In this document: positions 53,552 through 56,440 of the stretch, piece by piece
Layout: every line of letters begins with the position of its first letter
Numbering within the stretch: position 1 is the first letter of the stretch
From: an archaeon GW2011_AR20
GTDB taxonomy: Archaea; Nanobdellota; Nanobdellia; SCGC-AAA011-G17; GW2011-AR20
NCBI GenBank assembly: GCA_000830315.1
Contig: CP010426.1
Coordinates: 60,670-124,669 of the forward strand
Length of the DNA stretch: 64,000 nucleotides
Reading direction: 5' to 3'
Position numbers and translations under genes: made by a program
Notes under the pieces: generated by a model
The model's input: only the letters and a program-made list of their open reading frames with translations
Told to the model about the DNA's origin: nothing
Databases searched by the model: none

Positions 53552-56440
53552 TTATGTTTTTGTATAAGCCGGAATCTTTCTGATAGGAATCAACATGCTC
53601 TCTTTTGGAAGATCATCTTTTATAAACAAATAATCCCCCTGTAAGCCAACAGCCTGTAAATTATTCTGCTTTAATTCTCTAGACAATTGTTCAAATGCGA
53701 AATTAAAAATGAAATCAAAATGTTCTGGATTTTCATTATAGAATGATTTAAACTTTTTTGCCCTTCTTGTTGCTCTTCTTCTTTGATTAAGCAAATAAAT
53801 TAAATCAAACTTTTCTATTTGCGGAATAACACCATTTACAATAGCCTCCAAATCCCTTGATGTTTCCAAAAATGTATCATAAGTTGAGGCATATCTTTTA
53901 TTTAATGTTTTTACATTATCTTTAAATTGTTTGATGAATTCTTCTGGAATGTTTCTTAAATCTATTAAATCCTTGTTATCCTGTTCAAATAATTTAAATC
54001 CAAGCAATGACTCTGCTTGCGGATGCTCTTCAAAAAAAAGATGAATCGGTTTTAATCTGATCAGACTTCTTAAGTCACGCGGAGCTTTTGCATATATGCT
54101 TCTATAATTATTCTTTAACCTTTCATATGTGCGGTCATAAGCATTTAATAAAAAAAGTTTGTTCAAACTTAATATTTTCCTTTCAAGTTCAGAGAAAATT
54201 AATTTAGCCTCTCCTTTATCTAAACTTATTTTACTTAAATTATTGTAGTAAATGTTTCTCTCCCTAATGTAAAAGTAATAATCAATTAAAGGATCTTGCA
54301 AAAAATAATTTGGATAACGCAAGGCAGCGAATTTTTCCAAATGATCTCCCGGCAATGCATCAAAGTACTGCCTCCAGCCTGGAAAAAGATGGATTAAAAA
54401 ATCTTTTAGCCACAATTCAACAGGCATATAAGCCTGCACAACATCCTCTGCATCCTGGTTTAGGATCTTAATACTATTTTTTTCAAATAACCTGGATTTC
54501 AAGACACCATATCTCTTTTTGAATATTTCTTTCTCATCTTCCCTTACTTTTTCTTCATATCCAAAGTAACGCTCATTGTGATTCTTTTCAAAATGAATTG
54601 TTTTGTGAAGTTCCTCCATTATGCTTGGAGAAAACATTATAGATGTTAGAGATACATGTGGCATTAATTTTTTCACTTTTAACGCAATATCCATAAACAA
54701 TGGGTATTCTACAATATCTCTAAGAGGGTCTTCTACATCTCGTATTGTATAATTATCCAATGTTAGTTCAGCTTCTTTATTCCCGAGCATAGATTCCAGA
54801 ACCAAATCCCTTAATTCCTCATGCGTTGCTATTTTTTTAAATTCTCTGTCTATTTTTCTTAAACTCCTGATAAATCGGGCAGAATCTTCTAACCTATGGC
54901 TTGTACCATATTTACTTTTTAGAAACGGAAAAAAATTAAACATTAACCTGTGCGTATCAATTATCTCTTGCCCTGGACTTAAAACTCTTTGATAAACTTT
55001 TCTTACAGCGTCTCTTTTTGGATTCAAAAATTGTGTTGCCAGATCAAATTTCTTATGCAATTTATGCTCTAAAAAAGCGTCTCTTGTTTGTATCAAATCA
55101 TATGGTATTACATGATTTGATAAAAAGTAAGGTTCTGTTTTTCTTAATTGATAAAAAAATTCATTCAGTAAATCTCTCTCATTACAAAAATTAAAAACTT
55201 TATAGCCAAACAAATCGGGTTCGGCTCCGGGATTATAATTTATTTTATAATACTGCCTCAATCCGACATTAACATTATTTGCAACAAGGAGAGTAATGTT
55301 ATTTATTATGGCATCAAATCTCTTATCATATAAGGGAATTATGCTGCCGTTAAAGTTTATTGTTAATTTCTCCTCTAACTCATTAACTAGTCTATTGATC
55401 CTTTTCTGTTTGTCTGATGAACGATAGTTCGGCAAAGATTTTAGTTTTAGTAATTCATCCCTTCTATCCAAAAGAATCTTTTCATCTTTTCTTTTCCAAA
55501 GGGGTTTTTCTATATCAAAATATGCAATATTTTGTTGGGTTAATTCCTTATACAAATGTTCCTGAAATTCGATGCCTTTAACGCCCAGGATATTTAATCC
55601 CTTGTTCTCTTTATGGTAATATAAAAAAATTCTGTAATTTAACGCCCCTGAATCAATTGTTAAATCATTTGATGTATCGACTTGTCTGACTAATTTCCTT
55701 ATCTCCCCCAAGTTTTCAGAGATTCTATTTTCTAAATTCAGTATTTTCTCTGGATTATTCTCAGATAGATATTTATGAAGACGAAAAAGTTTCCTTGCCT
55801 TGGCAAGATTTAATACATCATCAATCTTAAAAGATCCATTGTAATTGGAGAAAAATTCGAATAATTGTTTATATATTAAATGTGGTTTCTTTTCAAGGGG
55901 CAAATTATCAATTTGGTAAATCAATTCGGTTTCTGCATTTCTAATTTCGTTCTTTTTTATAAGCGCCTGCTCAAGTTTCTCGTCCAAGTTTACTTTTCTA
56001 TTTAATATGTTTAGATATCTTTTTGTAATTCTGGAATAACTTCCTGTTTGAAATCCGCTGATTTTAGTCGAAGGAAGGGTTCCTATAATCTCAGGATTAT
56101 TTGGTAAAAAGATATTAATCGAGAGAGAGTCTCCTTCATGCTCGTTCACGACAACATTATGCTTACTTTTTAGATAAGCGGCATGAAAAAGCATGTGAGA
56201 AGGTAAATATATTATCATTGATTCGACCTGCTTGATGTCCCTCACCTTTTCCAGAGTTTCATCGAGTTGCCTAATTGAGTATAAATTAAAACTCGGTATT
56301 AAGGTTGGATAATTAATATATATGTCTGTAATTTTCGGATCAATTAAATCAGAGTTTCTAAATGAAACTATTAAATTTCTTTGCGATTTCTGTTTGGGTT
56401 CATAATTAACATAGGTTACAAACCAATGCGAATCTTGCAT
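53552..56440 (-). CDS. Large conserved hypothetical protein (962 aa), function unassigned
   Basis: Long uninterrupted ORF next to orc1/cdc6; contains YFDIE and GYKVFNF segments loosely reminiscent of family-B polymerase exonuclease motifs, but no YGDTDS-type polymerase motif. Confidence 0.4.
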   Translation of the reverse strand: MQDSHWFVTYVNYEPKQKSQRNLIVSFRNSDLIDPKITDIYINYPTLIPSFNLYSIRQLDETLEKVRDIKQVESMIIYLPSHMLFHAAYLKSKHNVVVNEHEGDSLSINIFLPNNPEIIGTLPSTKISGFQTGSYSRITKRYLNILNRKVNLDEKLEQALIKKNEIRNAETELIYQIDNLPLEKKPHLIYKQLFEFFSNYNGSFKIDDVLNLAKARKLFRLHKYLSENNPEKILNLENRISENLGEIRKLVRQVDTSNDLTIDSGALNYRIFLYYHKENKGLNILGVKGIEFQEHLYKELTQQNIAYFDIEKPLWKRKDEKILLDRRDELLKLKSLPNYRSSDKQKRINRLVNELEEKLTINFNGSIIPLYDKRFDAIINNITLLVANNVNVGLRQYYKINYNPGAEPDLFGYKVFNFCNERDLLNEFFYQLRKTEPYFLSNHVIPYDLIQTRDAFLEHKLHKKFDLATQFLNPKRDAVRKVYQRVLSPGQEIIDTHRLMFNFFPFLKSKYGTSHRLEDSARFIRSLRKIDREFKKIATHEELRDLVLESMLGNKEAELTLDNYTIRDVEDPLRDIVEYPLFMDIALKVKKLMPHVSLTSIMFSPSIMEELHKTIHFEKNHNERYFGYEEKVREDEKEIFKKRYGVLKSRLFEKNSIKILNQDAEDVVQAYMPVELWLKDFLIHLFPGWRQYFDALPGDHLEKFAALRYPNYFLQDPLIDYYFYIRERNIYYNNLSKISLDKGEAKLIFSELERKILSLNKLFLLNAYDRTYERLKNNYRSIYAKAPRDLRSLIRLKPIHLFFEEHPQAESLLGFKLFEQDNKDLIDLRNIPEEFIKQFKDNVKTLNKRYASTYDTFLETSRDLEAIVNGVIPQIEKFDLIYLLNQRRRATRRAKKFKSFYNENPEHFDFIFNFAFEQLSRELKQNNLQAVGLQGDYLFIKDDLPKESMLIPIRKIPAYTKT

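What the first reader, a model, noticed from the sequence alone, without database searches (positions are those of the whole stretch)
53552..56440. 962-aa unassigned protein adjacent to orc1/cdc6
Long conserved-looking ORF with no Walker motifs or recognisable catalytic signatures. YFDIE and GYKVFNF segments faintly recall family-B polymerase exonuclease motifs I and II, but no polymerase motif C is present. Its position beside the Orc1/Cdc6 gene makes a replication-associated role conceivable.
Basis: inference. Interest (0 to 1): 0.45.

Follow-up and report, generated by a model that had tools for sequence, protein, structure and literature searches.

The report
Thumbless PolB relic keeping only exonuclease
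The unassigned 962-aa gene is a very diverged family-B DNA polymerase of tiny DPANN archaea that has kept a perfectly conserved proofreading-type 3'-5' exonuclease site but appears to have lost its polymerase catalytic residues and its thumb domain; its position near orc1 is not a conserved feature.

Summary
The ORF (53552-56440, minus strand, 962 aa) is a real gene. It is the "hypothetical protein" QT11_C0001G0145 of the Woesearchaeota genome GW2011_AR20. Alone it matches no Pfam, NCBIfam or PDB sequence.

- **Exonuclease site kept:** D309/E311, D448 and Y564/D568 are invariant in 48 family members and essentially invariant in 51 sister-group members.
- **Polymerase site not kept:** the motif A aspartate position holds Tyr/Phe, and motif C is reduced to QGDYLF. 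Its single Asp is not conserved in the sister group.
- **Thumb missing:** the protein ends 26 residues after motif C.

Best reading: a PolB-derived DEDDy 3'-5' exonuclease on a catalytically dead polymerase scaffold.

The orc1 neighbourhood, which includes oapB/oapC, is shared only with a close relative. Distant homologues sit between S6e and aIF5B.

Verdict: a new variant of a known kind, of moderate interest.

The parts
53552..56440 (-). Whole CDS, 962 aa. A PolB-derived protein, identical to the 962-aa representative of a 90%-identity cluster that also holds AJF62301.1, hypothetical protein QT11_C0001G0145 of archaeon GW2011_AR20.
55982..56440 (-). N-terminal domain (aa 1-153), rich in beta-strands. 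It is conserved across the superfamily (W6, FE.KQ, NRLIL.F, FQTG.Y motifs).
   Evidence: hhalign A2 vs A3 aligned from residue 3
55667..55981 (-). Variable helical insertion (aa 154-258). It is present in the long (~950-1170 aa) forms and absent from the ~820-aa forms of the family.
   Evidence: gap fraction 0.51, lowest conservation; secondary structure
54716..55573 (-). DEDDy 3'-5' exonuclease domain (aa ~290-575). It is the most conserved region, holding 25 of the 45 columns that reach >=3.5 bits.
55493..55528 (-). Exo I motif IAYFDIEKPLWK (aa 305-316). D309 and E311 are invariant in 99 of 99 sequences.
55082..55117 (-). Exo II motif NHVIPYDLIQTR (aa 442-453). D448 is invariant in A2 and present in 49 of 51 A3 sequences.
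   Evidence: aligned to Pol II NVVQFDL
54806..54973 (-). PolB-typical exonuclease-domain elements: (G)xxxID (invariant D495) and SHxLExxAxx...FxK (invariant L517, K536). They correspond to Pol II GRLIIDG and SLETVAQELLGEGK.
54731..54763 (-). Exo III motif TLDNYTIRDVE (aa 560-570). Y564 and D568 are invariant in 99 of 99 sequences.
   Evidence: aligned to Pol II YNLKDCE
54401..54460 (-). Degenerate motif A region NQDAEDVVQAYMPVELWLKD (aa 661-680). The family pattern pG-l-Y-e-N-V-x-x-x-Y parallels Pol II PGLYDSVLVLD, which puts Tyr671 (Tyr/Phe in 88 of 99) where the catalytic Asp should be. E675 is conserved only in the A2 family.
   Evidence: low-confidence part of the alignment; strand 664-671; not supported by independent sequence statistics
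53945..54166 (-). Family-specific helical insertion (aa 759-832) with no counterpart in the sister group. It contains LKNNYRSIY, which resembles motif B only by chance, and the only low-confidence loop (aa 804-812).
53735..53920 (-). Putative fingers: two long antiparallel helices (aa 841-868 and 877-901). They end in a motif B remnant, a basic patch RRAKK followed by F897..Y901-(G).
   Evidence: assignment inferred from topology and spacing to motif C
53555..53665 (-). Palm C-terminal sheet (aa 926-962). The beta-hairpin 929-934/937-941 carries the degenerate motif C Q-G-D936-Y-L-F, followed by strand 951-959 (R954). The protein ends here, so there is no thumb.

Best explanation
The gene encodes a highly diverged member of the family-B DNA polymerase (PolB) fold. 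It belongs to a lineage found, so far as could be traced, only in DPANN archaea (Woesearchaeota, Pacearchaeota, Nanoarchaeota).

**Most likely mechanism**
- It works as a two-metal-ion DEDDy 3'-5' exonuclease. D309, E311, D448 and D568 would bind the two Mg2+ ions, and Y564 would position the attacking water.
- The enzyme would remove nucleotides from a 3' end of DNA.
- The former polymerase half (palm and fingers) appears to have lost the catalytic aspartates. In this subfamily it has also lost the thumb.
- That half survives as a nucleic-acid-binding or protein-docking scaffold, not as a synthesising enzyme.

**Shown**
- The PolB fold.
- Strict conservation of the exonuclease residues.
- Non-conservation of the canonical polymerase residues, and absence of the thumb.
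- Chromosomal, vertically inherited gene context.

**Inferred**
- That the exonuclease is active.
- That the substrate is DNA.
- That the polymerase is dead.
- The cellular role: trans-acting proofreading, or 3'-end processing in replication or repair.
For: **PolB fold**
- The 48-sequence AlphaFold model has pLDDT 93.1 and pTM 0.91.
- The Foldseek PDB top 50 are all PolBs, E 8e-9 to 5e-6 over 730-1100 columns. BFVD gives the same picture.

**Sequence bridge to PolB**
- P0007 hits PF03104 at E 3.7e-6, and 19 of 51 sister-group members hit PF03104.
- A2 vs A3 hhalign gives probability 100%, E 2e-82.
- A3 vs E. coli Pol II gives 96.7% over Exo I-III.
- The A3 profile vs PDB finds archaeal PolBs at E~1e-14, including a thumb stretch.

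**Exonuclease site**
- D309, E311, D448, D495, K536, Y564 and D568 are invariant in 48 sequences whose mean column identity is 24%.
- They are kept in 49-51 of the 51 sister sequences.
- The exonuclease domain is the most conserved region.

**Polymerase site**
- The position aligned to the motif A Asp holds Tyr/Phe in 88 of 99 sequences.
- E675 becomes Gly in A3. D936 is present in 42 of 48 A2 sequences but is replaced by N/P/S/Q in most of A3.
- No PF00136 hit was found in any of the 58 members scanned.

**Thumb and context**
- A2 ends at column 739 of the 946 A3 columns.
- The gene is chromosomal: housekeeping neighbours, no relatives in IMG/VR, and no PADLOC hits or meaningful PHROG hits.

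**Established knowledge (not tested here)**
- The isolated N-terminal+exonuclease fragment of T4 gp43 (PDB 1noy) is an autonomous exonuclease.
Against: - No activity was measured.
- The residue-level equivalence for motifs A and B comes from a low-confidence (greedy) stretch of hhalign plus pattern and topology arguments. The post-Exo III half gives no significant sequence match to a (thin, 4-sequence) PolB profile, and a palm-A segment profile finds no PolB in the PDB.
- I could not inspect model coordinates or run a domain-level fold search.
- Within the A2 family, several palm residues are well conserved: Y671, P673, E675 (46/48), D936 (42/48), Y937 and R954 (44/48). Some function of that site is therefore under selection.
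- PolB2/Dpo2 was also 'predicted inactive' and later shown to be an active polymerase (PMC8764526).
- The protein evolves much faster than its neighbours: 51% identity against 64-93%. That is unusual for a core replication enzyme.
Confidence: 0.6

Rival explanations
1. It is a bona fide but non-canonical DNA polymerase. The family-specific conserved residues E675 and D936, with the basic patch on the finger helix and R954, would form an unorthodox active site. Another domain or partner would replace the thumb.
For: - E675 (46/48), D936 (42/48), Y937 (45/48) and R954 (44/48) are conserved in the A2 family.
- D936 sits at the turn of the motif C hairpin.
- There are precedents of PolBs with a single motif C Asp that are active: piPolB and PolB2/Dpo2 (PMC7544198, PMC8764526).
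Against: - The motif A Asp position holds Tyr/Phe in 88 of 99 sequences.
- E675 and D936 are not conserved in the full-length sister group, which still keeps the exonuclease site.
- There is no thumb, and no PF00136 signal in 58 members.
- Woesearchaeota and Pacearchaeota are reported to carry a Pol II-like PolB, group B7 (PMC7544198).
Confidence: 0.13
2. It is a purely structural, non-catalytic PolB relic, like the C-terminal half of eukaryotic Pol epsilon or poxvirus F12, serving only as a scaffold in a replisome or other complex.
For: - The polymerase motifs are degenerate and the thumb is lost.
- It diverges fast relative to its neighbours.
- Inactivated PolB modules are a recurrent theme (PMC2669801, PMC4304020).
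Against: - All five DEDDy residues, plus D495 and K536, are invariant across about 99 sequences at 14-24% mean identity.
- That is very hard to explain without selection for catalysis. Known scaffold relics have lost these residues.
Confidence: 0.07
3. The exonuclease acts on RNA, in rRNA or tRNA 3'-end maturation or in surveillance, rather than on DNA. The gene would belong functionally with the translation genes it is clustered with in most of the family.
For: - In 9 of the 16 further loci compared (near-duplicates L003 and L011 left out) the gene lies between ribosomal protein S6e and aIF5B, with aIF2-gamma close by.
Against: - The closest structural and sequence relatives are DNA polymerase proofreading domains, not RNases.
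- Archaeal information-processing gene clusters routinely mix replication and translation genes (general knowledge).
- There is no direct evidence either way.
Confidence: 0.12
4. One reading: an origin- or Orc1-linked replication-initiation factor whose function is tied to its position next to orc1/cdc6.
For: - The window carries oapA-like GTPase, oapB, oapC (Pfam 'origin-associated protein') and orc1 at 49187-52669.
- The same arrangement is kept in L001.
Against: - The gene converges on orc1 and is separated from it by other ORFs.
- No orc1 or oap was found within the flanks held (up to 6-8 kb each side where the contig allows) in the 17 further loci.
- No ORB-like repeat family was found around orc1.
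Confidence: 0.04

Closest known systems
Archaeal family-B DNA polymerases of the Thermococcales type (Tgo, KOD, 9°N, Pfu, D. Tok, P. abyssi PolB)
   Same: - Exo I/II/III motifs and the accessory GRxxxD and LExVAxxxLGxxK elements are shared.
- The sister-group profile matches these chains at E~1e-14, including a thumb helix pair.
   Different: - 8-12% identity.
- The motif A Asp position holds Tyr, motif B is degenerate, and motif C has one non-universal Asp.
- No thumb.
- Extra helical insertions at aa 154-258, 318-358 and about 708-836.
- No PF00136 match.
Archaeal PolB2 (Dpo2) and bacterial G2 group
   Same: A diverged PolB with a single Asp in motif C that was long annotated as 'inactivated' (PMC7544198, PMC8764526).
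   Different: The decay pattern is the mirror image.
- PolB2 has lost Exo I and Exo III but keeps motif A and polymerase activity.
- This family keeps the exonuclease site perfectly and loses motif A and the thumb.
C-terminal inactivated PolB module of eukaryotic Pol epsilon; poxvirus F12; inactivated pPolB fused to helicases in polinton-like viruses
   Same: PolB-derived proteins whose polymerase catalytic residues have decayed while the fold persists (PMC2669801, PMC4304020, PMC5499653).
   Different: Those relics have also lost the exonuclease catalytic residues. Here the DEDDy set is invariant.
Stand-alone or trans-acting DEDD proofreaders (E. coli DnaQ/epsilon; T4 gp43 N-terminal exonuclease fragment, PDB 1noy)
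   Same: - These are functional precedents for proofreading exonuclease acting without a linked polymerase (established knowledge).
   Different: - DnaQ is DEDDh, about 180 aa, and unrelated to PolB beyond the core.
- 1noy is an engineered fragment.
- This is a natural 800-1170-aa protein that keeps the palm and fingers remnant.
Pol II-like group B7 PolB of Woesearchaeota and Pacearchaeota (Kazlauskas et al. 2020)
   Same: Same host lineages and same superfamily (PMC7544198).
   Different: - B7 is a canonical, presumably active, Pol II-like enzyme.
- The present family is not mentioned in that survey's text, and no mention of AR20, GW2011, Woesearchaeota or Pacearchaeota turned up in the two supplementary files held as text.
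- It has no detectable Pol II-type polymerase motifs.

Membership tests
Family-B DNA polymerase (PolB) superfamily | Overall fold: N-terminal domain, exonuclease and palm/fingers in PolB order | tested here: met
   [not shown]
Family-B DNA polymerase (PolB) superfamily | Exo I (DxE), Exo II (Nx2-3[FY]D) and Exo III (Yx3D) motifs | tested here: met
   D309/E311, N(H)xxPYD448 and Y564xxxD568 are invariant and align to Pol II D156/E158, D229 and Y331/D335.
Family-B DNA polymerase (PolB) superfamily | Motif A DxxSLYPS with catalytic Asp | tested here: not met
   The position aligned to Pol II D419 is Tyr671 (Tyr/Phe in 88 of 99), and there is no SLYPS. The alignment is low-confidence there.
Family-B DNA polymerase (PolB) superfamily | Motif B KxxxNSxYG on the second finger helix | tested here: not met
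   Only a basic patch (aa 893-896) and F897..Y901-G902 remain, and K and N are not conserved. The motif-B look-alike K776..Y783 lies in a family-specific insertion.
Family-B DNA polymerase (PolB) superfamily | Motif C YGDTDS at a beta-hairpin turn | tested here: not met
   The hairpin is present (aa 929-941) but reads Q-G-D-Y-L-F. The single Asp is 42/48 in A2 and replaced by N/P/S/Q in most of the sister group, which keeps Asp in only 4 of 51.
Family-B DNA polymerase (PolB) superfamily | Thumb domain C-terminal to motif C | tested here: not met
   The protein ends 26 aa after D936. Sister group A3 has about 207 further profile columns that match the archaeal PolB thumb. No separate thumb ORF was found in the window.
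Family-B DNA polymerase (PolB) superfamily | Curated profile matches (PF03104 exonuclease; PF00136 polymerase) | tested here: inconclusive
   The window protein matches neither. PF03104 is hit by 20 of 58 relatives, weakly. PF00136 is hit by none.
Family-B DNA polymerase (PolB) superfamily | Template-directed DNA synthesis | not testable with these tools
   Needs biochemistry.
DEDDy (DnaQ-like) 3'-5' exonuclease superfamily | Four acidic residues plus Tyr in three motifs on an RNase-H-like fold | tested here: met
   [not shown]
Fully inactivated PolB relics (Pol epsilon C-terminal half, poxvirus F12) | Loss of both exonuclease and polymerase catalytic residues | tested here: not met
   The exonuclease residues are invariant. 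Only the polymerase part fits.
Orc1/origin-associated gene set (oapABC-orc1 neighbourhood) | Conserved genomic linkage to orc1 or the origin | tested here: not met
   Linkage is seen only in the window and the close relative L001. It is absent from the 17 further loci, L002-L019.

The most novel reading that the evidence does not exclude
This is a natural 'exonuclease-only PolB': a dedicated trans-acting proofreading or 3'-end-editing subunit of the DPANN replisome. It would have evolved from a replicative PolB by killing the polymerase and discarding the thumb, the mirror image of Pol alpha and Pol zeta. It might pair with an active polymerase in a two-module arrangement like Pol epsilon. A rarer alternative is that it polymerises with a catalytic site that lacks the motif A aspartate.
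Probability: 0.2. Interest if true: 0.8.

Novelty: new variant of a known kind. Interest (0 to 1): 0.55.

Why it matters
PolB relics described so far have lost either the exonuclease (Pol alpha, Pol zeta, PolB2) or both activities (Pol epsilon C-terminal half, F12).

This family keeps an immaculate exonuclease site on a decayed, thumbless polymerase body. It is widespread in one archaeal superphylum (153 clusters at 50% identity) and chromosomally fixed. That points to a different evolutionary outcome for a replicative polymerase.

It also shows that genome-reduced DPANN archaea invest about 2.9 kb in such a protein. It gives a name and a testable activity to a gene annotated 'hypothetical protein'.

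It may bear on how inactive PolB modules were recruited as replisome subunits before eukaryotes. It does not, however, reveal a new kind of machinery.

Tried and rejected
**Searches that found nothing**
- The single protein against Pfam, NCBIfam and PDB sequences: only noise. The A1 and A2 profiles against PDB: nothing significant.
- PADLOC: nothing. PHROGs: two marginal hits for P0007 only, E~0.004. IMG/VR scan: no relatives. A defence-system or viral origin is therefore rejected.
- ORB-like repeats or dyads around orc1: only AT-rich chance matches.
- The window was searched for a separate thumb ORF or a canonical PolB with HMMs: none.

**Searches that added nothing or could not run**
- A second word-index search with A1 added no sequences.
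It returned only relatives more than 85% identical and was useless for that purpose.
- The search for related loci with A2 failed because it had no conserved stretch.
- The afdb50 fold library was unavailable.
- Castelle 2015 is not held. The Woesearchaeota genomics paper does not mention polymerases. The supplementary files held for Kazlauskas 2020 do not mention AR20 or these lineages.

**Tests that failed to support residue-level claims**
- hhalign of the post-Exo III halves against a 4-sequence PolB profile gave no signal.
- The palm-A segment profile (A4) against the PDB found no PolB.
- The residue equivalences in the polymerase half therefore remain inference.

**Readings I withdrew**
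- I first read K776-x3-R780-S781-x-Y783 as motif B. I rejected this because that stretch is an A2-specific insertion with no counterpart in A3.
- The neighbouring metallophosphoesterase (56491-57072) as a DP1-like partner: rejected, because it is absent from the syntenic locus L001.
- orf129 as a split-off thumb: rejected, because it is not conserved in L001 and has no HMM match.
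Full report
**1. 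The observation**

The ORF listing finds an ATG-initiated 962-aa ORF at 53552..56440 on the minus strand. The window has about 31% G+C and carries archaeal housekeeping genes:
- class II ribonucleotide reductase, ATP-dependent DNA ligase, ThrRS, RNase J, FtsZ, aIF5A, Spt5, L11 and type IV pilus genes.

The ORF is identical to the 962-aa representative of a 90%-identity cluster. That cluster also holds AJF62301.1, 'hypothetical protein QT11_C0001G0145 [archaeon GW2011_AR20]', found on an 829-kb contig.

orc1/cdc6 is confirmed at 51614..52669 (+). It is preceded by an OapA-like GTPase, OapB and OapC, which Pfam calls 'origin-associated proteins'.

The target is not directly adjacent to orc1. It converges on orc1 and is separated from it by a 129-aa ORF and three micro-ORFs.

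**2. Homologues**

Alone, the protein matches nothing in Pfam, NCBIfam or PDB sequences.
- The word-index search gave six relatives of 29-58% identity. The most distant, P0007, hits PF03104, the PolB exonuclease domain, at E 3.7e-6.
- The exhaustive profile search gave 153 cluster representatives at E<=1e-3 and 60 at E<=1e-30.
- I split these into the core family (alignment A2, 48 sequences of 680-1180 aa) and a second tier (A3, 51 sequences of 740-1240 aa).
- A2 and A3 are full-length homologues: hhalign probability 100%, E 2e-82, aligned from residue 3.
- 19 of the 51 A3 members hit PF03104. None of the 58 scanned members hits the polymerase-domain model PF00136.

All 16 loci recovered from species-representative genomes are DPANN MAGs: Woesearchaeota, Pacearchaeota, Nanoarchaeota, or 'archaeon'. 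An A3 member sits on a 774-kb archaeal chromosome among housekeeping genes. No relatives were found in IMG/VR, no PADLOC family matched, and PHROGs gave only two marginal hits for one relative.

**3. Structure**

- With only 7 sequences the model was poor, pLDDT 66.
- With A2 it reached pLDDT 93.1 and pTM 0.91.
- The N-terminal+exonuclease fragments align 297 residues (T4, 1noy) and 342 residues (Pol2 1-528). Full-length polymerases align 427-489 residues. Roughly 100-190 aligned residues therefore lie beyond the exonuclease domain.
- The Foldseek top 50 in the PDB and the top hits in BFVD are likewise all PolBs, at 7-12% identity.
- The A3 profile finds archaeal PolB chains (D. Tok, Tgo, KOD, 9°N, Pfu) at E~1e-14 by sequence. 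There are two matched stretches, one in the exonuclease domain and one in the thumb (PolB 621-666).
- A3 vs E. coli Pol II gives 96.7% probability over Exo I to Exo III.

**4. Anatomy**

- **N-terminal domain:** aa 1-153.
- **Variable helical insertion:** aa 154-258. It is absent from the ~820-aa forms.
- **Exonuclease domain:** aa ~290-575.
  - Exo I is IAYFD309IE311KPLWK.
  - Exo II is NHVIPYD448LIQ.
  - The PolB-typical elements are IID495 and SHRLED...FKK536.
  - Exo III is Y564TIRD568.
  - These align to Pol II D156/E158, D229, LIIDG, LGEGK and Y331/D335.
- **Palm strand:** aa 664-671.
- **Further helices:** these include an A2-specific insertion at aa 759-832.
- **Putative fingers:** two long antiparallel helices at aa 841-868 and 877-901.
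- **Palm helix:** aa 905-925.
- **Motif C hairpin and end:** a beta-hairpin at 929-934/937-941 with G935-D936 at the turn, then a final strand at 951-959, then the stop codon.

**5. What is and is not conserved**

Across 99 sequences, with mean column identity 24% in A2 and 14% in A3:
- D309, E311, K536, Y564 and D568 are invariant.
- D448 is kept in 97 of 99 and D495 in 98 of 99.

The polymerase side looks different.
- The family pattern pG-l-Y-e-N-V-x-x-x-Y matches Pol II PGLYDSVLVLD419 in spacing, and the greedy hhalign alignment agrees. This puts Tyr671 (Tyr/Phe in 88 of 99) where the motif A aspartate should be.
- The hairpin (K/R/Q)-G-D936-Y-L-F aligns with D-T-D-S-x-F/Y. Only the second motif C Asp is therefore kept, and only in A2 (42/48). 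In A3 the position is N/P/S/Q.
- E675 (46/48 in A2) is Gly in A3.
- Motif B is reduced to a basic patch plus F..YG.
- The superfamily as a whole therefore has no conserved carboxylate pair in the palm.
- A2 ends at column 739 of the 946 A3 profile columns. The missing part is the region that matches the archaeal PolB thumb.

Caveat: beyond Exo III there is no statistically significant sequence similarity to PolB. The motif equivalences rest on topology, spacing and a low-confidence alignment. I had no access to the model coordinates.

**6. Genomic context**

- In L001, where the target is 51% identical, synteny is kept: FtsZ-FKBP-aIF5A-M50-TatD-target-...-orc1-...-oapCBA.
- There the neighbours are 64-93% identical, so the target evolves markedly faster than they do.
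- In the 17 further loci (L002-L019) no orc1 or oap is found nearby.
- After leaving out the near-duplicates L003 and L011, nine of the remaining 16 loci have S6e upstream, and eight of those nine also carry an aIF5B-like GTPase gene just downstream of the target.
- The gene is thus a stable chromosomal gene whose linkage to orc1 is local and recent.
- No ORB-like repeat family was seen around orc1.

**7. Interpretation**

Selection has acted uniformly on the DEDDy exonuclease site and not on the polymerase catalytic residues.
- The most economical reading is a PolB-derived 3'-5' exonuclease whose palm and fingers remnant serves as a DNA-binding or docking scaffold. I put this at about 0.6.
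- The precedent of PolB2/Dpo2, predicted dead but found active (PMC8764526), and the A2-specific conservation of E675, D936 and R954 keep a non-canonical polymerase alive as a rival (about 0.13).
- A purely structural relic is unlikely, given the invariant catalytic residues.
- An RNA-directed role is hinted at only by synteny with translation genes.

**8. Comparison and novelty**

The protein belongs to the PolB fold superfamily. It fails four defining features of a working PolB: motifs A, B and C, and the thumb.

Its pattern of decay is exonuclease kept and polymerase lost. That is the inverse of Pol alpha, Pol zeta and PolB2. It also differs from the doubly inactivated Pol epsilon C-terminal module and from poxvirus F12 (PMC2669801, PMC4304020, PMC7544198).

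I found no description of it in the papers searched. It is annotated as hypothetical and has no Pfam family.

I rate it a new variant of a known kind, with interest 0.55.

Noticed in passing
window 53229-53533 (+); L001 10954-11258 (-): Three overlapping micro-ORFs (34, 36-43 and 36 aa) lie between the target's 3' end and orf129. They are conserved at the protein level in the syntenic locus L001, for example MDIYNRKWLNELVEDDEISSDEQGFMNGYLGAF against MNIYNEDKLNEMIEDDEISIEEEGFMQGYLGAL. The third ends in a PIP-box-like Q-G-F-M-N-G-Y-L. None has a Pfam match.
   Followed up: partly
window 49187-52669: An OapA-like GTPase, OapB, OapC (Pfam 'origin-associated proteins'), a 118-aa ORF and orc1/cdc6 form a conserved block that is also present in L001. 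It probably marks the chromosomal origin region. No ORB-like repeats were detected in the 470-bp gap upstream of orc1 (51143-51613).
   Followed up: partly
L010 7276-7278 and L011 7276-7278: The homologue in two groundwater Woesearchaeota MAGs carries an in-frame TAG exactly where the family has a conserved Tyr/Phe (..FYP*LG..). This could be a one-base nonsense change (pseudogene), read-through or an assembly artefact.
   Followed up: partly
window 53552-56440 vs L001 8001-10982: The target protein is only 51% identical between the two syntenic genomes, while the flanking genes are 64-93% identical. This is unusually fast divergence for an information-processing gene.
   Followed up: partly
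C-termini of P0002-P0005 (alignment A1 columns ~1040-1059): Close homologues carry a 20-35-aa acidic C-terminal tail ending in E-P-S/N-L-F-E-M, which the window protein lacks. The sister group's thumb region contains a conserved P......FEM, so the tail may be a remnant of the lost thumb or a docking peptide.
   Followed up: no
window 56491-57072 (+): A 193-aa calcineurin-like metallophosphoesterase is transcribed divergently, only 50 bp from the target's start codon. It is absent from the syntenic locus L001, where TatD directly precedes the target, so it is probably a lineage-specific insertion and not a partner.
   Followed up: partly
window 3476-5833 (+), 1901-3388 (-), 6282-8185 (-), 8625-9485 (+), 12006-13325 (+), 27237-28280 (-): Several further long ORFs (286-785 aa) have no Pfam match at all. 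The 785-aa one is another candidate for structure-based annotation.
   Followed up: no
L024 6001-8913 (OZ246410.1, 774-kb chromosome): The sister group (A3, e.g. P0072, 970 aa) keeps a thumb-like C-terminal region that matches archaeal PolB, but it has lost even the single motif C Asp. It was not determined whether A2-type and A3-type genes ever co-occur in one genome.
   Followed up: partly
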